The position numbers and the translations under genes are program-made. Shown piece by piece: positions 25,657 to 35,469 of a stretch of DNA of 64,000 nt (position 1 is its first letter; each line of letters begins with the position of its first letter). The stretch is from a virus (Duplodnaviria; Caudoviricetes), in IMG/VR virus record IMGVR_UViG_3300002835_000001, positions 233,652 to 297,651 of that record. One strand, 5' to 3'. The notes under the pieces were generated by a model. The model did not search any database, had not been told where the DNA came from, and saw nothing but the letters and a program-made list of their open reading frames with translations.

Positions 25657-26307
25657 TTATTTTTTATCCATTAATTTATTTATTAGTTTTTCACTAGCCT
25701 TTTTGAGAGCATTACTTAAAGATGTCTGATTAAATGAACCTCCTTCGTCAACAATAAGTGTTGACATAGAAACTTCAGATGATGACTCCTCAACAATAAG
25801 TTCTTTTTCTTTTTTACCGTCTTTTGTTAATGTTCCTTTCAATCTAATAACCACTTCTTCCTCACCAGAATGGAAAACCGATATGTTCTTCTTTGTTGTA
25901 AGAACGTCTAAATAAACAATTTGTACTTTTAATTTGTATGGAGATGATGCCGATAAATCGTAACCCTTTTCTTGTAAAAACTCTTCTAATATGTTTTTAA
26001 CCCCAAATGCTAAATTTCTATTACCTGCTAGTTTACCAATTTTAACCTCATTGGTTACACTTTCGACCCAAATGTGGTCGTCGGCATCGTACCAAATATT
26101 TTCAGGGGAGTTTTTGAATGTACCATCGATTCTCCATTCAATCCAATTTATTACGTTTCTCTGTAATTCATGTTTACCTGAAAATTCTAAATAAACGAAG
26201 AATAATTGAAAACACAGTGCGAATGCAATCCAAAACCCAACTAATGATAAAAATATCATAGCAAGTTTGTCGCCAATGTTAATAGTAAGTGATTTGATTT
26301 TTTCCAT
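25657..26307 (-). CDS. Membrane-anchored protein, possible CsgG-like paralog
   Basis: N-terminal TM. It ends FNQTSLSNALKKA, comparable with FNQSTISTATKKA in 17160-17882. Confidence 0.55.
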   Translation of the reverse strand: MEKIKSLTINIGDKLAMIFLSLVGFWIAFALCFQLFFVYLEFSGKHELQRNVINWIEWRIDGTFKNSPENIWYDADDHIWVESVTNEVKIGKLAGNRNLAFGVKNILEEFLQEKGYDLSASSPYKLKVQIVYLDVLTTKKNISVFHSGEEEVVIRLKGTLTKDGKKEKELIVEESSSEVSMSTLIVDEGGSFNQTSLSNALKKASEKLINKLMDKK

Positions 26308-26369
26308 AAGGTTCTAAGTTTTTTTACCCACTCAGAACCACATATTAATATCATATTAATATAATATGT

Positions 26370-26401
26370 AATGTATTGAGAGAGATACATTTATTTTTGT
26401 C
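26370..26401 (+). repeat. Direct repeat, right copy (pairs with 14618-14651)
   Basis: AATGTATTGAGAGAGATACATTTATTTTTGTC. Confidence 0.8.
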
Positions 26402-26489
26402 CCTTATAAATATCAAGATATGGTAACTAGTCAAAAAAAATTTATTAAAATATTTTTAACTTTTTCTTGTTTATATATATATTTATTGT

Positions 26490-26497
26490 TATCTTTG
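26490..26497 (+). promoter_or_regulatory. Bacteroidota -7 element upstream of the leader ORF and tRNA cluster
   Basis: TATCTTTG fits TAnnTTTG. Confidence 0.55.
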
Positions 26498-26527
26498 TAG
26501 AAAGAAAAAAATATTAAATAAAATTCA

Positions 26528-26623
26528 ATGAGACAATTAACACATATGCCGTCAACATCAAACCAACTAAATTGGAATGAGCAACCTATGTCCATATGTC
26601 TCGATGATACTGATGTGGGTTAA
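26528..26623 (+). CDS. 31-aa leader-peptide-like ORF (not in the ORF track)
   Basis: MRQLTHMPSTSNQLNWNEQPMSICLDDTDVG*, lying between a promoter and a terminator. Confidence 0.5.
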   Translation: MRQLTHMPSTSNQLNWNEQPMSICLDDTDVG

Positions 26624-26645
26624 GTAATTAACCTAATATAATTAG

Positions 26646-26682
26646 AAAACCTCGGGACTTAAAAAATCTCGAGGTTTTTTGT
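26646..26682 (+). terminator. Intrinsic terminator just upstream of tRNA-Pro
   Basis: AAAACCTCGGGA-cttaaaaaa-TCTCGAGGTTTT followed by a U-run. Confidence 0.7.
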
Positions 26683-26693
26683 TTTATACAAAT

Positions 26694-26768
26694 AGGGTAA
26701 TGGACTAATGGCTAAGTCACTTGCTTTGGGAGCAAGGCATCATGGAGGTTCGAGTCCTCTTTACCCTA
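26694..26768 (+). tRNA. tRNA-Pro(TGG)
   Basis: Acceptor AGGGTAA/TTACCCT, anticodon arm CTTGC-TT TGG GA-GCAAG, T-loop TTCGAGT. Confidence 0.92.
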
Positions 26769-26773
26769 CAAAC

Positions 26774-26845
26774 GCTGATTTAGCTCAGAGGCAGAGCACG
26801 AAGCTGTTAACTTCGGGGTCCGGATATCGTAATTCTGAATCAGCG
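26774..26845 (+). tRNA. tRNA-Asn(GTT) with an atypical T-loop
   Basis: GCTGATT/AATCAGC, CGAAG-CT GTT AA-CTTCG, T-loop ATCGTAA. Confidence 0.85.
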
Positions 26846-26850
26846 CAAAC

Positions 26851-26922
26851 ATCCGTGTAGTTCAATCGGTAGAACGTCGGTCTCCAAAACCGAAAATGAA
26901 GGTTCGAGTCCTTACATGGGTG
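26851..26922 (+). tRNA. tRNA-Trp(CCA)
   Basis: ATCCGTG/CATGGGT, TCGGT-CT CCA AA-ACCGA, T-loop TTCGAGT. Confidence 0.9.
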
Positions 26923-26929
26923 CAATAAT

Positions 26930-27009
26930 ACCCGAGTGGTGGAATGGTATACACAGCGGTCTTAGAAACCGTGTCGAAAGGCGTGTCGGTTCGAGTCCGA
27001 CCTTGGGTA
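26930..27009 (+). tRNA. tRNA-Leu(TAG)
   Basis: ACCCGAG/CTTGGGT, GCGGT-CT TAG AA-ACCGT, long variable arm. Confidence 0.92.
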
Positions 27010-27014
27010 CATAT

Positions 27015-27085
27015 TGTCCTTTGGTATAACGGTAGTACAAATGTTTTTGGAGCATCTAGTTGAGGTTCGAATCCTTGAGGGACAA
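27015..27085 (+). tRNA. tRNA-Gln(TTG)
   Basis: TGTCCTT/AGGGACA, loop TT TTG GA, T-loop TTCGAAT. Confidence 0.88.
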
Positions 27086-27087
27086 CT

Positions 27088-27160
27088 GTGTTTATAGTGT
27101 TAATGGTTAGCACGTCAGTTTGTGGTACTGATAGTATGGGTTCAAATCCCATTAAACACC
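27088..27160 (+). tRNA. tRNA-His(GTG)
   Basis: GTGTTTA/TAAACAC, TCAGT-TT GTG GT-ACTGA, C73. Position -1 is T, not G. Confidence 0.9.
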
Positions 27161-27222
27161 CTTTGGTTATTAGTGTTCCAAATCAAACAAAAAAATGGAC
27201 TTTTGGAACATTAATAATATAT

Positions 27223-27297
27223 TGCGGGATGTGTAGAAAATGGTTATCTCGTCGGTCTCATAAGCCGAAGTTCTGGGTTCAAGTCCCAGTCCCGCAA
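27223..27297 (+). tRNA. tRNA-Met(CAT), initiator-like sequence
   Basis: TGCGGGA/TCCCGCA, TCGGT-CT CAT AA-GCCGA, T-loop TTCAAGT. Confidence 0.85.
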
Positions 27298-27433
27298 CTA
27301 CAGAAGCAAAGTATTTTAAGTAAAATTTTGCAAAGTAAAAAAAAAGTTTTACATTCGTACCATAATTAAATGGGGTGAGATGTATTACCTATAGTTCCCA
27401 TAAATGGGGTCATAAATTATTAATTAATTAAGT

Positions 27434-27916
27434 ATGAAAAAAAGATTATTATTTATCGTGTTGTTTATCATAGTAACAACATCAACAATTAAAACAGAAG
27501 GAAAAACAATTAAATTAAACAATAACCAAATACCAAAAATAAGTTATGTAAATTTATATAATACTATTTTATCGATGGGTATTCTATATCCAGATATTGT
27601 ATTTGCCCAAGCGGTGTTAGAATCTGGAAGTTTTAAATCAAATTTAGCAATATTAAATAATAATATTTTTGGTATGAGACACCCAAAAATCCGTGAAACA
27701 ACCGCAATAGGTGAAGGAAAGAGTGGATATGCAAAATACAAAACGTGGGTACAAAGTGTTGAGGATTACCAACATTGGCAGGATTTTTTTCTAAAAGATA
27801 AGGAAATTTCAAGACAAGAATATCTTAATCTATTAGGAAGAATATACGCAACTGATAAAAATTATATATTAAGATTAAATCGTAAAATTAAAGAATATAA
27901 ACACATATTAGGTTAA
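27434..27916 (+). CDS. GH73/FlgJ-like glucosaminidase with an N-terminal signal/TM
   Basis: FAQAVLESG, NNIFGM, YAKYKTW and YATDKNY. Confidence 0.85.
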   Translation: MKKRLLFIVLFIIVTTSTIKTEGKTIKLNNNQIPKISYVNLYNTILSMGILYPDIVFAQAVLESGSFKSNLAILNNNIFGMRHPKIRETTAIGEGKSGYAKYKTWVQSVEDYQHWQDFFLKDKEISRQEYLNLLGRIYATDKNYILRLNRKIKEYKHILG

Positions 27917-28067
27917 AAATAAATTTGACAATTATTTTTTAATTTAAAGTATTGTTCATATATTTGTTAAACAATGGTTGATTGGGATTTAACGGGGCTA
28001 GCGAATAGCGAGAAACGCCAATTATAAAAACAGATGTCCACACCCCCATCTTCTGTTTTCCATAGTA

Positions 28068-28140
28068 GCCCGAATAGCTCAGTTGGTAGAGCAGCTGATT
28101 TGTAATCAGCAGGTCGTCAGTTCGAGTCTGACTTTGGGCT
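28068..28140 (+). tRNA. tRNA-Thr(TGT)
   Basis: GCCCGAA/TTTGGGC, GCTGA-TT TGT AA-TCAGC. Confidence 0.93.
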
Positions 28141-28331
28141 CAACAGGTGACGACGGTGGTGGAACCCCACTGTCTATAAATCTCAACACCCGCCTTGATT
28201 CGCGGTATTATAGCGGTGAGAGTAGAGTTATTACAAGTCGGGAGTAATTAACCCAATGACGAAAGTGTAACCACAGATATAGAAATATATTTGTTATGAT
28301 GTACGAAAGGGTACGAAAAACCTGTTATTTT

Positions 28332-28404
28332 GGGATTGAGGTCAAACGGTTAAGATGTCGCCCTGTCACGGCGCACGGAGCGGGTTCAACTCCCGTCAGT
28401 CCCG
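28332..28404 (+). tRNA. tRNA-Asp(GTC)
   Basis: GGGATTG/CAGTCCC, loop CT GTC AC, G73. Confidence 0.9.
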
Positions 28405-28611
28405 CAATGAGTAAGAAGTACTCAGTAAGTTTGGTAACGTTCTTTCAAGATGTTATGGTTGTCTCCTACCACGGCCTTAAGAGGGGGTCTCGGAATATGG
28501 GGGTAACAATCCCACCGAGTATGTTTGACTTTTTAAGCGGTAAGACGCGTTGGGTTTTTCAATAGGAAAAACTGTGAATATCTACTCACTGGGACTTCAG
28601 GTGGGACAATT

Positions 28612-28697
28612 GGAAGGATGGCAGAGTTGGTCTATCGCGTCGGTCTTGAAAACCGAAGTACTGAAAGGTACCGTGGGTTCGAATCCTACTCCTTCCG
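28612..28697 (+). tRNA. tRNA-Ser(TGA)
   Basis: GGAAGGA/TCCTTCC, TCGGT-CT TGA AA-ACCGA, long variable arm, G73. Confidence 0.93.
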
Positions 28698-28702
28698 CAT
28701 TT

Positions 28703-28774
28703 GCTCGGTTCGACTAGTGGTTAGGTCGCGTCCCTTTCACGGACGTAGCACGGGTTCGAATCCCGTACCGAGTA
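28703..28774 (+). tRNA. tRNA-Glu(TTC)
   Basis: GCTCGGT/ACCGAGT, CGTCC-CT TTC AC-GGACG. Confidence 0.93.
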
Positions 28775-28791
28775 CTGAATATAATAAAAAC

Positions 28792-29433
28792 ATGGAGACA
28801 AAGATTATCAACGGAGATTTTAGAGATTGTGTGGTACCTGATGGTTTAGTGATAACTGACCCTCCATACAACCAAGAATATTCTTATAACGAATATAAGG
28901 ATAAACTTACTGAAGAAGAATATATTGAACTACTATCTAAGATACCAACTCCATGTGTAATCATTCATTATCCTGAAGAAACAATTAATTTGTTACCAAA
29001 AGCAATTAACGCAAAATGTGAACAAGTGGTTTGTTGGGTTTATAATTCTAACACGGGAAAACAAAGTCGATTAATTTCTTGGTGGGGATGTAAACCTGAT
29101 TTTAAAAAGGTTAGGCAAGAATATAAAAATCTAAAAGACAAAAGAATTCAGAAAAGAATTGCTGAGGGTAAAACCGGAGCTAAACTTTATGATTGGTGGG
29201 AAATCAATCAAGTAAAAAATGTTAGCAAGGAAAAAACCGAACACCCTTGTCAAATACCCGAAGAATTAATTAGACGAATTATTCTTACAACGGCACAATC
29301 AAATCAAACAATCATTGATGTTTTCGGTGGTAGTGGTACAACATCAAAAGTCGCTAAAGAATTAGGATTTAATTCGATTAGTTACGAAATTGATGAGAAG
29401 TATTGTGAAATTATTAAGAATAGAATTACATAA
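28792..29433 (+). CDS. Amino (N4-C/N6-A) DNA methyltransferase, beta-class order
   Basis: ITDPPY near the N-terminus, HPCQIP, and IIDVFGGSGTT SAM motif. True start is METKIING at 28792; the longer ORF in the track runs through tRNAs. Confidence 0.88.
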   Translation: METKIINGDFRDCVVPDGLVITDPPYNQEYSYNEYKDKLTEEEYIELLSKIPTPCVIIHYPEETINLLPKAINAKCEQVVCWVYNSNTGKQSRLISWWGCKPDFKKVRQEYKNLKDKRIQKRIAEGKTGAKLYDWWEINQVKNVSKEKTEHPCQIPEELIRRIILTTAQSNQTIIDVFGGSGTTSKVAKELGFNSISYEIDEKYCEIIKNRIT

Positions 29434-29515
29434 AAACTTTTACTTTTTTATATTAAGATATTGATTTACAATATTTTATTTTGTATATTTGTTATATTAC
29501 AAATATTTATAATAT

Positions 29516-29818
29516 ATGATAGATAAAATCACATTATCGTTAATGTTATTTTTTAACACATTAACGTCATCTATCGACCCAAGTCTTTCTGATGAAAGAA
29601 AGTCTGTCAATCAAATAAAAAAACAGATTAAATCTCTTGAAAGAAAAATTGAATGGGTTGAAGTAACAGATGAGAATTACGCTAGCAGGGCCGTCAAAAC
29701 CAAAGGAATCACGGACGAGATTACCAAATTAAATGGTGAAATTGTAAAGATTGAGAAGGTTGCAAATTTAAAAGATAAATGGGCTAAGGAAGATTCCTTA
29801 ACCAAATCGAAAAAATGA
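29516..29818 (+). CDS. Secreted coiled-coil protein
   Basis: Hydrophobic N-terminus and a heptad-rich body. TATATTTG at 29484-29491. Confidence 0.65.
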   Translation: MIDKITLSLMLFFNTLTSSIDPSLSDERKSVNQIKKQIKSLERKIEWVEVTDENYASRAVKTKGITDEITKLNGEIVKIEKVANLKDKWAKEDSLTKSKK

Positions 29819-30264
29819 AAAAAATTTTTTTAGTGCTAACGTTACTTTTGGGAGTGGAAGTCGTAGCAAATGGACAAGAGTGGTTTATAACTGCCACTCG
29901 AAAAGGCGGTCCATCAGATGGTTATATAACTGGTGGTTTTATGAAAAAAGGTTGGGGGTTTTATGCTGGTCTTCCTTATGGTGAAATAGGGGGTCCGAAT
30001 GGTGGAATTTCAATTCCTCCTGGTGTTAATACCAAAACGGGAAACGTATCTGATAACATGAAGTTCGGTGTTCTTAGACAATTAAAAGAAGATAAAGCAA
30101 TTGTTGGATTTGGATTACAACCAACACTTGGTGGTAATAAACCAAATTTTCTTATAATGTACAATCCACTTAGGCCAAGTACCGTTATAAATTTATGGAC
30201 AATTGGTAATTTAGTCGGTAGTGATTTCACATTAGGACTTGGTTTATCGTATAAAGTAAAATAA
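29815..30264 (+). CDS. Small outer-membrane beta-barrel-like protein
   Basis: Signal peptide, Gly/aromatic strands and a terminal LGLGLSYKVK. Confidence 0.65.
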   Translation: MKKIFLVLTLLLGVEVVANGQEWFITATRKGGPSDGYITGGFMKKGWGFYAGLPYGEIGGPNGGISIPPGVNTKTGNVSDNMKFGVLRQLKEDKAIVGFGLQPTLGGNKPNFLIMYNPLRPSTVINLWTIGNLVGSDFTLGLGLSYKVK

Positions 30265-30281
30265 ACATTTTTAGTTAAGTT

Positions 30282-30323
30282 AAAACCCTGAACAAACTAA
30301 AAAAAATTGTTCAGGGTTTTTTT
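30282..30323 (+). terminator. Intrinsic terminator
   Basis: AAAACCCTGAACAA ... TTGTTCAGGGTTTT followed by a U-run. Confidence 0.75.
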
Positions 30324-30383
30324 ATACCATTTTTTTTTATTATATTTGAATTATAGTTCTTTGATTTATTGGAAAAACAAAAT

Positions 30384-30468
30384 GCCTGAGTGATGAAATG
30401 GTATACATGACAGACTTAAAATCTGTTGAGCAGAAACGCTCGTGCGGGTTCAAGTCCCGCCTCAGGTA
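30384..30468 (+). tRNA. tRNA-Leu(TAA)
   Basis: GCCTGAG/CTCAGGT, ACAGA-CT TAA AA-TCTGT, long variable arm. Confidence 0.93.
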
Positions 30469-30620
30469 CAAATGTAATGATTCAGAAATGAGTGACGGAA
30501 CGGACGCTACGTATGAAATGGAAACTTTTGAAGCACGTACAAAGGTGCTGATTTGAAACAAACCGTACAGACATTACATTTAAACACTATCGTTCTTTGA
30601 AAATAAAGGAGAAAATTAAT

Positions 30621-30869
30621 ATGGATATATTATCATTTATTTTAGGAATGTCAATAGTTGTGGTTATCGCAGTTGCGGTAGTTGCGGTTATTGCCTTTGT
30701 TAAGGTTAATAAAACTAACAAAGAAATTGAAACGATTCATACCATTATGGGTAATGAATCCGAAAGGTCGCATAGAGAGCGTGAAGAAGCAATTCAAAAT
30801 GTTTATAGAACATTAGATTCACGACTTGATAAACTTGAGAGTAAAATTACAACAAGCCGTAAGGCATAA
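30621..30869 (+). CDS. Single-TM coiled-coil protein inside the tRNA cluster
   Basis: MDILSFILGMSIVVVIAVAVVAVIAF followed by a coiled coil. AAGGAG upstream. Bracketed by an inverted repeat. Confidence 0.7.
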   Translation: MDILSFILGMSIVVVIAVAVVAVIAFVKVNKTNKEIETIHTIMGNESERSHREREEAIQNVYRTLDSRLDKLESKITTSRKA

Positions 30870-30909
30870 CGATTAAATAAAAACTTTCAAAGACGATAGT
30901 GTTATTTTT

Positions 30910-30983
30910 GGTTCCGTAGCTCAGTTGGATAGAGCAACATCCTTCTAAGATGTGGGTCTTTGGTTCGAATCCAAACGGGATCA
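30910..30983 (+). tRNA. tRNA-Arg(TCT)
   Basis: GGTTCCG/CGGGATC, ACATC-CT TCT AA-GATGT. Confidence 0.93.
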
Positions 30984-31036
30984 CGTAATCATTGAAAAAA
31001 ACGATATCAGATTTTATCGTTAGATTAAACGATAAT

Positions 31037-31110
31037 GGACTTGTAGCTCACTAGGTTAGAGCGGCACACTCATAATGTGAAGGTAATAGGTTCGATTCCT
31101 ATCTGGTCCA
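31037..31110 (+). tRNA. tRNA(CAT), probably Ile2 (lysidine-type) rather than Met
   Basis: GGACTTG/CTGGTCC, loop CT CAT AA, A73. The Ile2 versus Met identity is inferred from the GGxC acceptor start. Confidence 0.75.
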
Positions 31111-31237
31111 CTATTTAAAGTATGGGATTCCGATGGAAGTCCGCAAGAAAAATAGATGTTTTTCATCCATCAAAAAATCATCATAGAGGCCGCTAAATCG
31201 AGTTAGTGAAAATCTACATTCTCTGTGATGATCATAT

Positions 31238-31388
31238 TGTAGTGTGACGAAATTGGCAAACGTGCCCTCCTGTCTCGGGGGCGTGGATAAAGAAATAGAT
31301 TGATAATATTAGGGGGTAGACCACCAGCTTGCAAGCGTCATGTTATCAATCGAATCTCCACTTGGTGGTTCGAATCCATCCACTACAG
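31238..31388 (+). ncRNA. 151-nt tRNA-like RNA with an 82-nt structured variable arm and a non-canonical anticodon loop
   Basis: Acceptor TGTAGTG/CACTACA plus G, class-II-type D arm, CCCTC-CTGTCTC-GGGGG, T arm GGTGG-TTCGAAT-CCATC, insertion at 31282-31363. Confidence 0.8.
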
Positions 31389-31445
31389 CTTTTTATAAAT
31401 AAATTTTGTTTTGTCAATTTTATTTCTTATATTTTATTATAAACA

Positions 31446-31678
31446 TGGAAAATATGAAATGTATTAAATTAATTAAAGCAAGTAAAGGTCACGAAATTGG
31501 TCAAATTTTAAGAGTAAACGATGATGAGGCAGATTTAAGAGTAAAAGGTGGTTATTGGTCATTTGCACCAAAGACCGAATATAAACTTTATAAGAATCCT
31601 GACTACAAAACAAAGAAGACATCTGAGAAAGTATCTTCTAAAAAAACCTTGAAAAAAAATAAAGTAGAAAATAATTAA
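31446..31678 (+). CDS. Small basic hypothetical protein
   Basis: MENMKCIKLIK...ILRVNDDEADLRVKGGYWSF with a Lys-rich tail. Confidence 0.65.
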
Positions 31679-31685
31679 AAAATAT

Positions 31686-31765
31686 TTTGTTTTTTCAAAA
31701 AGTATTCGTATATTTGTAAAAGAAATCAGATAGATGGTTTCTAAAAACAAGAAATAGTTCTTTGA
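31686..31765 (+). promoter_or_regulatory. Bacteroidota promoter plus boxA-like element for the large ncRNA
   Basis: TTTG (31686), 19 nt, TATATTTG (31709-31716), then GTTCTTTGA at 31757-31765. Confidence 0.65.
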
Positions 31766-31776
31766 ATTAAAAATAT

Positions 31777-32571
31777 TGGCCGCCTATGGTCAACAAAATA
31801 AACCACGAAAGTGGGATAAAGTGATTTGGTTTGGTTAAATCAAGTTGCGGTTTCAGCAATGGAACTTGAGTAGGCAAACAGAATATCGTTGAACCTTAAT
31901 TACCGAGGGTAACACTGTAGGGAAAGTGGTTTAATGACTAAGCAATCCGAGTTGTTTGGTTGAGGTGGGAACACCAATAAGAATAATCTGTAGAGTTATT
32001 ACAAGAAGTAGGACGTCCAATCTTACAATTGTGTGACTCAATATGATGGGAATCTTAAAACCGAAAGGTATGGTGAAGTACGAGTGGTGTCGTTATCATC
32101 CTTAATTGAACTCTACCAAGGGTTTAGTTTTGAAGGGGTCCAAAAATATGGTAGCAGGGATGTTACAGAGAGTAGTTTAGTATCGAGTTGTTCAAAAGAT
32201 AACTTGGCTGGCAGACGAGCCACTACTTTCCAAATTCGGAACCAATAACAATTGTTAATTACGGTTTAACAACTCAAACAACAAGGAAAAGTGCTCGTCA
32301 GTCGTTGGAGACAGGTGACTACACAGTCGAGAGAGGTTCTCGGCCACAAAGGGTCCAAACCCAATGTGATTTTTAAGAAAGTTCTCTAAGTTCGCAAGAC
32401 TTAGTCGGGGTGGCAACCTCGAAGAGTAATGAGTATTAAAAGAGTATCTAACGACTTAAGGATTGGTTAATCTAATTGACCGTCGCTGATTGGTACTACT
32501 CAAAAGGTAGTGGATAAGAGAAGAAAAGATAATGTCTCTAAAGTCAATCGTTAAATGGTGTAATCTCAGCC
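31777..32571 (+). ncRNA. Large ornate structured RNA of about 795 nt, GOLLD-like
   Basis: No credible ORF, GC-richer than the flanks, own promoter. GNRA hairpins CCAC-GAAA-GTGG (31803), ACC-GAAA-GGT (32060) and CTAAGTTC-GCAA-GACTTAG (32386). Long-range helix GGAAAGTGGT (31921) with ACTACTTTCC (32222). Size and position next to tRNAs fit GOLLD. The family is not verified. Confidence 0.6.
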
Positions 32572-32707
32572 TTTTCTTTTTTTAATTTTGTGTAAAATTA
32601 AATGGTGGAATCTAACGATATTAAAAACCGTTCGGCCCTAAAAAATTAGTCATAAGAAATTATGGCTTTTTTTGTGCTTTTAATAAAATTTTACTTATAT
32701 TTGTTTT

Positions 32708-33460
32708 ATGAGAATAGTTTGTATATCAGACACACATAGTCTTCAGGATTTAATGTCTCACCCAATCCCCAAGGGTGATATATTGATACATTCAGGGGAT
32801 ATTTCAAATAAAGGAGGTGAAAAGGATGTCACCAATTTTGTACATTGGTTTCAAAACATTGAGGGTTTTGATTCTAAGGTATTCATTGCCGGTAATCACG
32901 ATTTTTGTTTTGAAAAAGTTAATCAACCTCATCACAAAGGTGATTATGATTGGTTACATAATTTAATGTCGCCTGAGAATCTATCACAATCTAATGTTGA
33001 GTATTTGGAGGATAATTCATTTGTAATAGAGTCACCTGAATTTTCAAAACTAATTAAAATTTACGGAAGTCCTTGGCAACCAAATTTTTACGATTGGGCA
33101 TTTAATTTACCGAGAATGGGTGATGAACTTAAATCTAAATGGGATATGATTCCTGATGATGTTAATATTTTAATCACTCACGGACCCCCAAATGAGATTA
33201 GAGATTTTGTAAGTAACTGGAGACAAGGTGATATGAATGTTGGTTGTGAATTGTTAAGACACCAATTAGATAACAGAATTAAACCAGTACTACACGTATT
33301 TGGACATATCCACGGAGCATATGGTGCGGCACTAATTAAGGATACTCTTTATGTAAACGCATCAACTTGTACTGAAAGATACGAACCAACAAATAAACCA
33401 ATCATTGTTGACTTAACTGAAGTTGATGGTAAATTAATTGCAACATATGTCGAAGAATAA
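32708..33460 (+). CDS. Calcineurin-like metallophosphoesterase
   Basis: CISDTH, HSGD, IAGNHD, ITHGPP and VFGHIH. Confidence 0.92.
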   Translation: MRIVCISDTHSLQDLMSHPIPKGDILIHSGDISNKGGEKDVTNFVHWFQNIEGFDSKVFIAGNHDFCFEKVNQPHHKGDYDWLHNLMSPENLSQSNVEYLEDNSFVIESPEFSKLIKIYGSPWQPNFYDWAFNLPRMGDELKSKWDMIPDDVNILITHGPPNEIRDFVSNWRQGDMNVGCELLRHQLDNRIKPVLHVFGHIHGAYGAALIKDTLYVNASTCTERYEPTNKPIIVDLTEVDGKLIATYVEE

Positions 33461-34130
33461 CCAACCAATTAGTGTTGTAATATCAACACGAAAAATTGAT
33501 GATACGTATTTAAAACACGTAGAAAAAATGTTTTCACACCCTAAGACTCAAATATTAATTTATGAGAATGATGGTGTCGATTCTTTACCCAAAATTTACA
33601 ATTTAGGATTACAAGAATCCGAACATGACATTGTTGTGTTTATGCATGATGATCTTATTTTGGAAACAACAAACATTACACCGAAAGTTGTTAGATTATT
33701 TAATGAGAATCCTGAATATGGTATAATTGGATTGGCTGGTACCGATAATCTAATAAGTGGGATGTGGTGGCAAGACAAAGAGTCGATGTATGGAGTTGTT
33801 GGTCACGAACACCAAGGTAAACGACATGTAAATCACTATTCAAAGAAATCATTTGGCGATAAACCAAAGGAGGTTGCTATTGTTGATGGTTTATTCATGA
33901 TGATACATAAAAAAAGAATTAAACACACATTCAACGAAGAGTTTAGTGGGTTTCATTTTTACGATTTACCGATATGTGTGGAAAACCACTTAGATGGTGT
34001 TAAAGTTGGTGTGACAACCAAAATTATGGTAACACATAAATCGATTGGTATGGTAAATAAACAATGGGAAAAAAATAAGTTGTTTTTTGAGGCATTATAT
34101 GAAAAACACTTCCCTTTAAGGGTTAACTGA
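33447..34130 (+). CDS. GT-A (GT2-like) glycosyltransferase
   Basis: IYNLGL, VVFMHDDL, GIIGLAG, VDGLFM and FHFYDL. Confidence 0.82.
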   Translation: MSKNNQPISVVISTRKIDDTYLKHVEKMFSHPKTQILIYENDGVDSLPKIYNLGLQESEHDIVVFMHDDLILETTNITPKVVRLFNENPEYGIIGLAGTDNLISGMWWQDKESMYGVVGHEHQGKRHVNHYSKKSFGDKPKEVAIVDGLFMMIHKKRIKHTFNEEFSGFHFYDLPICVENHLDGVKVGVTTKIMVTHKSIGMVNKQWEKNKLFFEALYEKHFPLRVN

Positions 34131-34172
34131 TTTTAGTACAATAACGGATATTTATATATAAAACAAACAATT

Positions 34173-34475
34173 ATGATGACAGTATTTTTAATTTTAATAG
34201 TTCTAGTAATAGCTGGAGCTGTAACATTTTTCCTAATGAAAAAAGGTAAAATCGAAGACAAAAACGGTAATAACATTCCTGATGTGGTTGAAGAAAAAAT
34301 TGAGGATGTTAAAGAATTGGTTAATGTAGTTAAAGAAAGAGCAACAAGAGTCGTTGAAGAAACTAAAGATGTTGTTGAAGCGGCTAAAAAAGTTGTTAAA
34401 CAATCTAAAGACGTAGTAGATGCAGCTAAGGGCAATGGTGCTCGTAAAGGAAGAAAACCATCTACTAAAAAGTAA
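34173..34475 (+). CDS. Single-TM protein with an amphipathic helical repeat tail
   Basis: TM helix, DKNGNNIPDVVEE, and VVEETKDVVEAAK repeats. TATTTATA at 34149-34156. Confidence 0.7.
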   Translation: MMTVFLILIVLVIAGAVTFFLMKKGKIEDKNGNNIPDVVEEKIEDVKELVNVVKERATRVVEETKDVVEAAKKVVKQSKDVVDAAKGNGARKGRKPSTKK

Positions 34476-34509
34476 ATTATTATACACATAGAAATTTAAT
34501 GGGTTAAAA

Positions 34510-34555
34510 TTTGTTTTTTAACCCTTTTTTATCTATCTTTGTAAAAGTTCTTTAA
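34510..34555 (+). promoter_or_regulatory. Bacteroidota promoter plus boxA-like element for tmRNA
   Basis: TTTG (34510), 20 nt, TATCTTTG (34534-34541), then GTTCTTTAA at 34547-34555. Confidence 0.65.
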
Positions 34556-34560
34556 AATAT

Positions 34561-34966
34561 GGGGATGCTTGGAATTGATTTCAGGTATCAGGGGTAAATG
34601 GCACGTAGTCAGACTTCATCTATGACTTAAATCTATGGTGGAAAATTTTAGACGGCAACGTTTATAAAAACATGGAAATTGCAGGTTTACTTGCAACTTC
34701 TAACGTAGAAGTAGCCTAAGGCAAAACTACAATCGGGTCGATGTACATATAACCTAGGAACAGAAGTACTCAAGGTGTAATACCACCCAAAGATGTATTA
34801 GGAGTCTCGTTCAGGGGTCTACTCCAACACAAGTGAACCCGACACAGTTATTGGTAACGATGTCAAAATAGGAACCAATTATTTGTCTGTTGTGAACTAA
34901 CAGAATAAACGTGTAGTCATTTATTGTTGAACCGGGAAGACCGGAGTTCGAGTCTCCGCATCTCCA
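34561..34966 (+). ncRNA. ssrA: tmRNA
   Basis: Acceptor GGGGATG/CATCTCC with G3-U70 and A73. 3' T arm CGGAG-TTCGAGT-CTCCG. Internal tag ORF at 34654-34719. Adjacent to smpB. Confidence 0.92.
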
Positions 34967-34969
34967 CTC

Positions 34970-35000
34970 AAAGGGGTTTCATTAATTGGAACCCCTTTTT
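34970..35000 (+). terminator. Intrinsic terminator after tmRNA
   Basis: AAAGGGGTTTC ... GAACCCCTTTTTT. Confidence 0.7.
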
Positions 35001-35031
35001 TATTTTAAAAAATTATACATATATTTGTAAT

Positions 35032-35469
35032 ATGAAAAATGTCATTGATAATCGAAAAGCTTATTTTAATTATAATATCGAGGATAAGTACACCGCAGGT
35101 ATACAATTAATTGGTACTGAAATAAAGTCCATTCGTGAAGGTAAATTAAATTTTAACGATTCATTTTGTTTATTCATCAATGGTGAATTATTTGTCCGAG
35201 GGATTTACATATCAGATTATTCTTTTGGTGTAAAACATGAAAATGTTAGAGATAGGAAATTACTACTAACCAAAAAGGAATTAAAGAAAATACAGGAATC
35301 AATTAAAGAAAAGGGATATACGATTGTACCATTAAAAGGGTACTTTACGGATACGAATTATTTTAAAATAGAGATTGGTATTGGTAAGGGTAAAAAGTCC
35401 TACGATAAGAGAGAAACAATAAAAAAAAGGGACTCTGAACGTGAGGTTAGAAGATTGGTGACCACATAA
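35032..35469 (+). CDS. smpB: SsrA-binding protein
   Basis: NRKAYFNY, AGIQLIGTEIKSIR, RDRKLLLTKKE, GYTIVPL and GKGKKSYDKRETIKKRD. True start is at 35032. Confidence 0.95.
   Translation: MKNVIDNRKAYFNYNIEDKYTAGIQLIGTEIKSIREGKLNFNDSFCLFINGELFVRGIYISDYSFGVKHENVRDRKLLLTKKELKKIQESIKEKGYTIVPLKGYFTDTNYFKIEIGIGKGKKSYDKRETIKKRDSEREVRRLVTT

What the first reader, a model, noticed from the sequence alone, without database searches (positions are those of the whole stretch)
31777..32571. About 795-nt ornate ncRNA (GOLLD-like) with its own promoter and boxA
Seen: an ORF-free, GC-enriched block with many GNRA-capped hairpins and a 10-bp helix spanning 300 nt (31921/32222). It has a promoter upstream and a U-rich end. 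Known: GOLLD RNAs are about 800 nt, often phage-encoded near tRNAs, form oligomeric cages by cryo-EM, and have unknown function. Inference: this is GOLLD or a new large RNA class in a Bacteroidota jumbo phage.
Basis: partly seen in the sequence, partly recalled or inferred. Interest (0 to 1): 0.8.

Follow-up and report, generated by a model that had tools for sequence, protein, structure and literature searches.

The report
Phage GOLLD RNA with boxA leader
This 796-base stretch is a complete copy of GOLLD, a known giant phage RNA that builds 14-copy cages, so the element is ordinary; what was not found in print is that it and over a hundred relatives start with the signal host bacteria place before their ribosomal RNA genes.

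Summary
Rfam's GOLLD model (RF02032) matches window 32168-32572 end to end at 316 bits (cut-off 150). That model covers only the 3' half.

The 5' half (31777-32167) is also GOLLD:
- It aligns along its whole length with at least 60 phage copies from IMG/VR.
- 75 of its 106 predicted pairs show compensatory changes.
- Both ends match the env-38 RNA, whose 14-mer cage was solved by cryo-EM.

Contigs from RNA libraries of lake water cover 31795-32571.

The claimed 10-bp helix (31921/32222) fails in relatives. A different long-range pairing, 31946-52 with 32234-40, covaries clearly.

The boxA call holds up best. GTTCTTTGA sits in the leader of 115 of 118 related GOLLD genes. The same nine bases lie upstream of 16S rRNA in 43 of 100 Bacteroidota loci sampled. 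This suggests rRNA-style Nus-factor antitermination, which is untested.

Verdict: a new member of a known family. The boxA leader is not in the searched literature. The scan's own notes record boxA-like leaders before structured phage RNAs on other DNA.

The parts
31686..31716 (+). Bacteroidota-type promoter: -33 TTTG (31686-89) and -7 TATATTTG (31709-16). The predicted start is near 31722-24.
   Evidence: Pattern match (9 matches in the window against 4.65 expected). The same type lies 20 nt before the tmRNA gene. Both boxes are conserved in five close relatives while the spacing to the RNA varies. The start site is inferred, not mapped.
31722..31741 (+). Small leader hairpin at the predicted 5' end (GAAAUCA-GAUAGA-UGGUUUC).
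   Evidence: Read from the sequence. L075 keeps a hairpin with a changed stem; L097, L009 and L093 lack it. It is therefore optional.
31757..31766 (+). boxA-like element GTTCTTTGAA in the transcribed leader, 11 nt before the RNA core.
   Evidence: present in 115 of 118 GOLLD leaders and in 17 of 19 leader sequence clusters. Density is 6.5 per kb in leaders against 0.12 per kb elsewhere. It lies 25-66 nt after the -7 box but 19-131 nt before the core; the same 9-mer lies upstream of 16S in 43 of 100 Bacteroidota loci.
31777..32167 (+). GOLLD 5' domain, the cap-forming part in env-38. It includes the GAAA loop at 32063-66 that fits the published L11a.
   Evidence: Not covered by the Rfam model. 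It aligns with 29 non-redundant phage copies. 106 predicted pairs are 96.4% canonical, 75 with compensatory change, against 36-42% and 24-37 when partners are slid. It starts as env-38 does.
32168..32572 (+). GOLLD 3' domain, the universally conserved half. It includes the CAAAA loop at 32193-97, the loop-loop candidates at 32393-97 and 32412-15, and the terminal loop GUAAUCUCA at 32560-68.
   Evidence: Rfam RF02032: 316.1 bits, E 1.2e-89, model positions 1-416 of 416. 89 pairs are 96.7% canonical, 69 with compensatory change.
32241..32289 (+). Variable A-rich linker, closed by the helix 32214-20/32293-99.
   Evidence: The columns are poorly conserved in alignment A2. The closing helix is 100% paired with six covarying pairs. 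In env-38 the linker is disordered and lies inside the cage.
31946..31952 (+). Hairpin-loop arm of a long-range pairing; its partner is 32234-32240.
   Evidence: UCCGAGU/AUUCGGA here, UGUGGGU/AUCCACA in most relatives, UACCGGU/AUCGGUA in L109 and UGUAGAU/AUCUACA in two huge phages. Covariation cannot tell whether the pairing is within one chain or between chains.
32234..32240 (+). Partner arm of the long-range pairing, just 3' of the first helix of the 3' domain.
32573..32585 (+). U-rich tract directly after the last helix.
   Evidence: Present in most of the 30 aligned copies. The longest contigs from RNA libraries end at 32571-32575.
32648..32673 (+). Intrinsic-terminator-like hairpin (AGTCATAA-GAAA-TTATGGCT) followed by a T run, 75 nt after the RNA core.
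   Evidence: Conserved in six close relatives with changed stem bases, AGTCAGGA...TTCTGACT. The consensus scan missed it because the stem has only two G-C pairs.

Best explanation
Window 31777-32572 (+) is a complete gene for a GOLLD RNA (Rfam RF02032), carried by an uncultivated freshwater jumbo phage.

Identity is shown. Both domains are present and under structural selection, and both ends equal those of env-38, the GOLLD whose structure is solved.

By homology (inferred), the roughly 796-nt RNA should assemble without protein into a closed 14-copy cage. The 5' domains would form the caps and the variable linker would lie inside.

The transcription unit is inferred from comparison:
- A host-type (Bacteroidota) promoter at 31686-31716 starts an RNA whose first 35-45 nt carry GUUCUUUGAA.
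- That motif is the one Bacteroidota place before their 16S rRNA.
- I read it as a boxA. It would recruit host NusB-S10 and the other Nus factors to RNA polymerase.
- This would let the long untranslated RNA be made without Rho-dependent termination, and fold as it is made, as for rRNA.
- The leader, and the trailer up to the hairpin terminator at 32648-73, would then be trimmed off.

The biological role of the cage is unknown. The gene sits among 12 tRNA genes, a tRNA-like gene and a tmRNA-SmpB pair, so the likeliest field of action is host translation during infection.

The overall confidence below is for identity as GOLLD. My own odds for the other steps are about 0.6 for the boxA function, about 0.7 for cage assembly and about 0.3 for a translation-related role.
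For: Identity:
- Rfam GOLLD at 316 bits, full model.
- The 5' motif has at least 118 exact matches in viral contigs.
- 60 full-length relatives range from 53% to 85% identity.
- RNAalifold on 30 of them gives 197 pairs, 144 with compensatory change, spread over both halves and far above slid-partner controls.
- env-38 begins ATGGCCGCTATGGTCG and ends GGTGTATTCTCAGCCT, the same ends as here.
- The GAAA loop fits the published L11a and the CAAAA loop fits L14. The GC/CG switch in the loop at 32393-97 fits the published L21a.

Expression:
- Contigs from four lake RNA libraries of at least two studies cover 31795-32571 at summed word depths of 10^2 to 10^4.
- Near-identical DNA is held by 14 freshwater or lake runs from 2016 and 2024.

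Promoter.

boxA:
- Searches give the leader counts.
- The motif differs by one base from the gamma-proteobacterial GYTCTTTAA (10.1101/091223) and from B. subtilis GAUCUUUGAA, which was shown to bind NusB (PMC13753749).
- The identical 9-mer lies 85-200 nt upstream of 16S in 43 of 100 Bacteroidota loci. One-mismatch variants occur in 34 more. The reverse-complement control has no exact match.

Context: 12 tRNAs, a tmRNA and SmpB.
Against: - No experiment bears on this copy. Cage assembly is inferred from one solved homologue that I could compare only by eye.
- The start site, the processing and the working terminator are not mapped. Assembled contigs cannot show RNA ends.
- Binding of Nus factors to this motif is untested, and the host is unknown.
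- GOLLD copies that sit inside tRNA arrays show no boxA-like motif directly upstream: Acinetobacter phage Bestia and LR756502. The motif is therefore not needed by every GOLLD.
- The motif is T-rich in an AT-rich genome. Its background density, 0.12 per kb, is about eight times the uniform expectation.
- A second copy at 30592 precedes an ordinary small ORF.
Confidence: 0.93

Rival explanations
1. The RNA is GOLLD, but the conserved GUUCUUUGA in its leader is not a Nus-factor site. It could be a processing signal for the nuclease that trims the leader, a site for a phage protein, or part of the promoter's early transcribed region.
For: The motif keeps a fixed distance to the promoter rather than to the RNA core, which would also fit a promoter-proximal element. 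GOLLD copies inside tRNA arrays lack it.
Against: The identical 9-mer stands before 16S rRNA in 43 of 100 Bacteroidota loci, at the usual boxA distance. It matches published boxA consensus sequences at all but one position, including the critical C at position 4. A phage-specific site would not be expected in host rrn leaders.
Confidence: 0.3
2. The block is a new class of large structured RNA that only resembles GOLLD in size and setting.
For: The Rfam model covers only the 3' half, so the 5' 390 nt have no database match of their own.
Against: The 3' half matches the full GOLLD model at twice the gathering score. The 5' half aligns helix for helix with other GOLLD copies and begins as env-38 does.
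Confidence: 0.01
3. The block is a remnant of a group I or II intron or another mobile RNA, or a degraded protein gene.
For: It is long, structured and GC-enriched, lies beside tRNA genes where introns occur, and has no ORF.
Against: No intron or other family matches at E <= 1 in 29400-34600. Length and structure are conserved in at least 60 phages. Substitutions are compensatory in helices, not at codon third positions.
Confidence: 0.01

Closest known systems
GOLLD RNA env-38 (JCVI_SCAF_1096627009515/1239-410), whose 14-mer D7 cage was solved by cryo-EM (Kretsch et al., Nature 2025, PMC12286853)
   Same: Same family, with the same 5' and 3' ends, the same two-domain layout and a variable linker. 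The GAAA and CAAAA loops fit the published L11a and L14, and the terminal loop is near-identical (GUAAUCUCA here, GUAUUCUCA in env-38). Both lie downstream of a tRNA-Met gene.
   Different: This copy is 796 nt, against about 830. It comes from fresh water, not the sea. Several 5'-domain hairpins are shorter. The loop-linker pairing uses CCGA/UCGG.
Rfam family RF02032 (GOLLD; Weinberg et al. 2009), including copies in Lactobacillales prophages, Mycobacterium tRNA arrays and Acinetobacter phages
   Same: Full-length match to the model, phage-borne, beside tRNA genes.
   Different: This clade has its own promoter and a boxA-like leader instead of sitting inside a tRNA array. Its 5' motif was found in no genome of 185,579 bacterial and archaeal species, only in viral contigs.
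rrn operon leader boxA and the NusB-NusE (S10) antitermination complex; also phage T7's boxA behind its early promoters
   Same: A short single-stranded motif lies just after the promoter of a long untranslated RNA. The sequence is GYUCUUURA-like, and identical to the motif before Bacteroidota 16S genes.
   Different: No binding or antitermination has been shown here. No boxC equivalent is evident. A boxB-like hairpin is present in only some relatives.
ROOL RNA (another large phage RNA that forms cages)
   Same: Phage-borne, near tRNA islands, large, and forms an RNA-only cage.
   Different: Sequence and fold are unrelated, and Rfam gives no ROOL match here.

Membership tests
GOLLD RNA (Rfam RF02032) | Covariance-model score above the curated gathering score, over the whole model | tested here: met
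   316.1 bits against 150; model positions 1-416 of 416; E 1.2e-89.
GOLLD RNA (Rfam RF02032) | A second, less conserved 5' domain of about 400 nt joined to the 3' domain, giving about 800 nt in all | tested here: met
   The 5' domain is 391 nt and the whole is 796 nt. The 5' domain aligns with 29 non-redundant copies and has 75 covarying pairs. Its start equals that of env-38.
GOLLD RNA (Rfam RF02032) | Encoded by phages or prophages, often beside tRNA genes | tested here: met
   Twelve tRNA genes lie at 26694-31111 and a tmRNA at 34561. Relatives lie on viral contigs of up to 281 kb.
GOLLD RNA (Rfam RF02032) | Accumulates as an RNA | tested here: inconclusive
   Contigs of four lake RNA libraries cover 31795-32571. 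Contigs cannot give strand, ends or level, and relatives at 90% identity or more are summed.
GOLLD RNA (Rfam RF02032) | Assembles into a protein-free 14-mer cage | not testable with these tools
   Known only for env-38. Here it is inferred from homology and from conserved loops.
rrn-type boxA antitermination signal | Sequence fits the boxA consensus of the host group | tested here: met
   GTTCTTTGAA. The exact 9-mer lies before 16S in 43 of 100 Bacteroidota loci, against none in the reverse-complement control. It is one base from the published consensus sequences.
rrn-type boxA antitermination signal | Lies in the transcribed leader shortly after the promoter | tested here: inconclusive
   It lies 25-66 nt after the start of the -7 box in 83 loci. 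No start site is mapped.
rrn-type boxA antitermination signal | Binds NusB-S10 and makes RNA polymerase resistant to termination | not testable with these tools
ROOL, OLE, group I and group II introns | Match to the family's covariance model | tested here: not met
   No match at gathering scores in the window, nor at E <= 1 in 29400-34600.

The most novel reading that the evidence does not exclude
GOLLD genes of Bacteroidota phages are built like miniature rRNA operons. A host promoter is followed by the host's own rrn boxA, so the phage borrows the NusB-S10 antitermination and folding machinery to mass-produce its cage RNA. The leader motif then also reports the host phylum of uncultivated phages.
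Probability: 0.55. Interest if true: 0.5.

Novelty: new member of a known kind. Interest (0 to 1): 0.4.

Why it matters
The element itself adds one more GOLLD gene to a family known since 2009, so its discovery value is small.

Three by-products may be useful to people who work on these RNAs:
- A host-type boxA sits before nearly every GOLLD of this lake-phage clade. That gives a testable account of how an 800-nt untranslated RNA escapes Rho and folds, and a first handle on its biogenesis.
- The promoter type and the boxA variant point to Bacteroidota hosts for a large set of uncultivated phages.
- The alignment of 60 full-length copies gives strong covariation for the 5' domain, which Rfam does not model. 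It includes a loop-linker pairing that could be checked against the cryo-EM model.

Tried and rejected
Rejected.
- **Leader-trailer helix.** The leader AAUUAAAAA could pair with the trailer UUUUUAAUU and enclose the RNA as in rRNA operons. I rejected this by eye, because the nearest relatives (L097, L009) break two of the pairs without compensation.
- **Pairing of the boxA-like motif with the conserved UCAAAAG loops.** The registers do not fit.
- **A universal protein neighbour of GOLLD.** The order small ORF, GOLLD, metallophosphoesterase, glycosyltransferase is shared by only about 11 close relatives out of 118 loci.
- **The 5' motif in 185,579 species genomes.** No match, so no prophage host was found.
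- **Whole genome of the window.** Not held.
- **Megablast of 24 kb against 50,697 phage records.** Only tRNA-sized matches.
- **Arnvig et al. 2008 (PMC2580698) on boxA across phyla.** Not held.
- **Laid RNA libraries, flanks.** The flanks 31300-31461 and 32596-32900 had no cover, and the leader had single-digit depth in one run. One contig carrying adapter letters next to 31778 comes from a relative and is a single record.
- **Published helix names.** I could not map the long-range pairing 31946-52/32234-40 or the pairing 32314-19/32482-87 onto the P/L/J names of the cryo-EM paper, because figures are not held.
- **Formal pair-count tool.** Not used, because it needs a 927-character structure typed in. 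The same counts and slid-partner controls were computed in a script.

Full report
**What is there.** The stretch 31777-32572 has no stop-free run longer than 78 codons on either strand. Its GC is 39.9%, against 32.4% for the window. Rfam's GOLLD model (RF02032) matches 32168-32572 on the + strand over all 416 model positions, at 316.1 bits (gathering score 150, E 1.2e-89). No ROOL, OLE or intron model matches, even at E <= 1 in 29400-34600.

**The 5' half.** The Rfam model describes only the conserved 3' half of GOLLD, so 31777-32167 needed its own test.
- A 29-nt motif from its start (AAATAAACCNCGAAAGNGGGATAAAGTGA) has at least 118 exact matches in IMG/VR viral contigs. It has none in one genome for each of 185,579 bacterial and archaeal species.
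- Sixty of those loci hold a full-length copy, with the 5' and 3' motifs 763-816 nt apart (765 here). Identity to the window runs from 53% to 85%.
- An alignment of 30 non-redundant copies (A2) is colinear over both halves.
- RNAalifold predicts 197 pairs, 144 with at least one compensatory double change.
- Split by domain, the 5' domain has 106 pairs, 96.4% canonical, 75 with compensation. The 3' domain has 89 pairs, 96.7% canonical, 69 with compensation. Sliding the 3' partners by 1-3 columns gives 36-45% canonical and 19-37 compensated pairs.

The published sequence of GOLLD env-38, whose 14-mer cage was solved by cryo-EM, begins ATGGCCGCTATGGTCG and ends GGTGTATTCTCAGCCT (PMC12286853, supplementary file 1). 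The window reads TTGGCCGCCTATGGTC at 31777 and GGTGTAATCTCAGCCT up to 32572. By eye the 5' domains share long blocks.

**Structure details.**
- Five strict GNRA tetraloops lie in the 5' domain.
- The GAAA loop at 32063-66 fits the published L11a, and the CAAAA loop at 32193-97 fits L14. The loop at 32393-97 has GC where the two huge phages LR745206 and LR756502 have CG, the switch reported for L21a.
It is 5 + 5 pairs with a bulge, only 76% of cells pair across relatives, and its outer pairs are mostly G-A or G-G.
- Its 3' arm is taken by two well-supported helices: 32168-76/32222-30 (99.6% paired, GC swapped for CG) and 32214-20/32293-99 (100% paired, six covarying pairs), which closes the variable linker.
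- A scan for covarying stacks outside the nested fold found a real long-range pairing close by. The hairpin loop 31946-52 pairs with 32234-40. The arms read UCCGAGU/AUUCGGA here, UGUGGGU/AUCCACA in most copies, UACCGGU/AUCGGUA in L109 and UGUAGAU/AUCUACA in the huge phages.
- A second such pairing is 32314-19/32482-87.
- Covariation cannot say whether these pairings are within one chain or between chains, and I could not map them to the published helix names.

**Transcription unit.** A Bacteroidota-type promoter lies upstream: TTTG at 31686-89 and TATATTTG at 31709-16. The same type sits 20 nt before the tmRNA gene. Both boxes are conserved in five close relatives, although the distance to the RNA varies through insertions and deletions. 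After the core comes a U-rich tract found in most copies. Then comes about 75 nt of trailer, conserved in the close relatives, and a hairpin with a T run at 32648-73. That hairpin's stem changes compensatorily among relatives.

**The boxA-like element.** GTTCTTTGAA lies at 31757-66.
- The motif [GC]TTCTTT[GA]A occurs within 170 nt upstream of the 5' motif in 115 of 118 loci.
- It is 6.5 per kb in leaders against 0.12 per kb elsewhere in the same loci.
- It is kept in 17 of 19 leader sequence clusters, and one further cluster has a one-base deletion variant.
- All 55 distinct contexts read GTTCTTT, 51 of them followed by GA. The flanking positions vary.
- It lies 25-66 nt after the start of the -7 box (mode 34-36) but 19-131 nt before the RNA core. 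It is therefore tied to the start of transcription, not to the RNA fold.

Published boxA sequences are UGCUCUUUAACA in E. coli, GYTCTTTAANA in gamma-proteobacteria with a critical C at position 4 (10.1101/091223), and AUGAUCUUUGAAA in B. subtilis, which binds NusB (PMC13753749).

To learn what the presumed host phylum uses, I fetched 120 genome loci holding the Bacteroidota-type start of 16S rRNA. Of the 100 with at least 350 nt upstream:
- 43 carry the exact GTTCTTTGA, mostly 85-200 nt before the 16S gene.
- 34 more carry a one-mismatch form, chiefly GTTCATTGA or GATCTTTGA.
- The reverse complements of the same leaders give no exact match and 11 one-mismatch forms.

The GOLLD leader motif is therefore the rrn boxA of Bacteroidota. 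That it works as one here is inference. The function would be recruitment of NusB-S10 and resistance to Rho, together with assisted folding of a long untranslated RNA.

GOLLD copies inside tRNA arrays show no such motif directly upstream: Acinetobacter phage Bestia and LR756502. Phage use of a host boxA outside the lambda N system has a precedent in T7. A search of the held library for GOLLD together with boxA found only unrelated plant papers. The founding 2009 paper is not in that library.

**Expression and habitat.** Near-identical DNA is held by 14 freshwater or lake-water runs from 2016 and 2024. Six metatranscriptome runs hold 43-45% of the sampled words of the 1071-nt query, which included flanks. 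I laid four of the RNA runs, which come from at least two studies. Their contigs cover 31795-32571 at summed word depths of hundreds to tens of thousands. These are assembled contigs that include relatives at 90% identity or more. They show presence in RNA libraries, not ends, strand or level. The lack of cover on the flanks is recorded only under Tried and rejected.

**Setting.**
- Upstream lie 12 tRNA genes (26694-31111) and an uncalled tRNA-like gene (31238-31388).
- Downstream lie a metallophosphoesterase (32708-33460), a family-2 glycosyltransferase (33438-34130), a tmRNA (34561-34969) and SmpB (34924-35469).
- The neighbouring protein genes are shared only with about 11 close relatives, so no protein partner is suggested by gene order.
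- The place offsets of this scan's earlier notes put at least 181 kb of the same genome before this window, so the phage exceeds about 245 kb. A close relative lies on a 213.7-kb contig.

**Mechanism and odds.**
- Identity as GOLLD: about 0.98.
- Assembly into a 14-mer cage like env-38: about 0.7, by homology.
- boxA-dependent antitermination: about 0.6.
- A role in host translation during infection: about 0.3, resting only on the gene's neighbours and on published pull-downs of ribosomes with GOLLD.

**Novelty.** The element is a new member of a known family. The boxA leader is the only part I did not find in print. Notes of this scan on other phages also describe rRNA-style, boxA-led units for structured RNAs. 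Those notes are leads, not independent evidence.

Noticed in passing
window 31238-31388 (+): A 151-nt tRNA-like gene with an acceptor stem (TGTAGTG/CACTACA), a T arm holding GGTTCGAATCC, an anticodon-like loop CTGTCTC and an extra arm of about 80 nt. ARAGORN (with and without introns) and Rfam at E <= 1 do not call it. The minimum-energy fold is a cloverleaf with a giant extra arm at -45 kcal/mol.
   Followed up: partly
window 34510-35469 (+): The phage carries its own tmRNA (34561-34969, Rfam 76.9 bits) with a Bacteroidota-type promoter 20 nt upstream. An SmpB gene follows directly (34924-35469, Pfam PF01668, E 4.5e-53).
   Followed up: partly
window 30592-30601 (+): The only other exact GTTCTTTGAA in the 64 kb. 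It lies about 20 nt before the start codon of an 82-codon membrane-like ORF (30621-30869) that has an AAAGGAG ribosome site, followed by tRNA-Arg and tRNA-Met. No promoter motif was seen just upstream. It may be chance or a second Nus-factor site.
   Followed up: no
window 32600-32645 (+): A conserved trailer element (AAATGGTGGAAT ... CCGTKCGGCCC) lies between the GOLLD core and the terminator in the close relatives. In LR756502 a tRNA gene sits at the matching place, so this may be a tRNA remnant.
   Followed up: no
L123-L242 (Bacteroidota 16S loci): Upstream of 16S the phylum shows three main boxA forms: GTTCTTTGA (43 of 100 loci), GTTCATTGA (for example Polaribacter, Arenibacter, Christiangramia) and GATCTTTGA (for example a Chitinophagia MAG and Bacteroidales MAGs). 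The variant could help assign phage hosts below phylum level.
   Followed up: partly
L122 about 1900-2642 (Acinetobacter phage Bestia, MW316733.1 about 26150-26894): An unannotated GOLLD gene (Rfam 221.8 bits for the 3' half) fills the gap between tRNA-Asn and tRNA-Asp in a cultured 98-kb Acinetobacter phage. The same match occurs in phages YMC13/03/R2096 and P577.
   Followed up: partly
Supplementary ROOL alignment of PMC12286853 (file 5): Four human-gut ROOL rows begin UGUUCUUUGAUAUG at the 5' edge of the alignment. A boxA-like leader may therefore also precede some ROOL RNAs.
   Followed up: no
leaders of L004, L006, L007, L019, L046, L055, L074, L083 and others: In many leader classes a second short motif, TTATCC, follows the boxA-like element by about 12-20 nt. 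It is absent from the short leader of the window's own clade.
   Followed up: no
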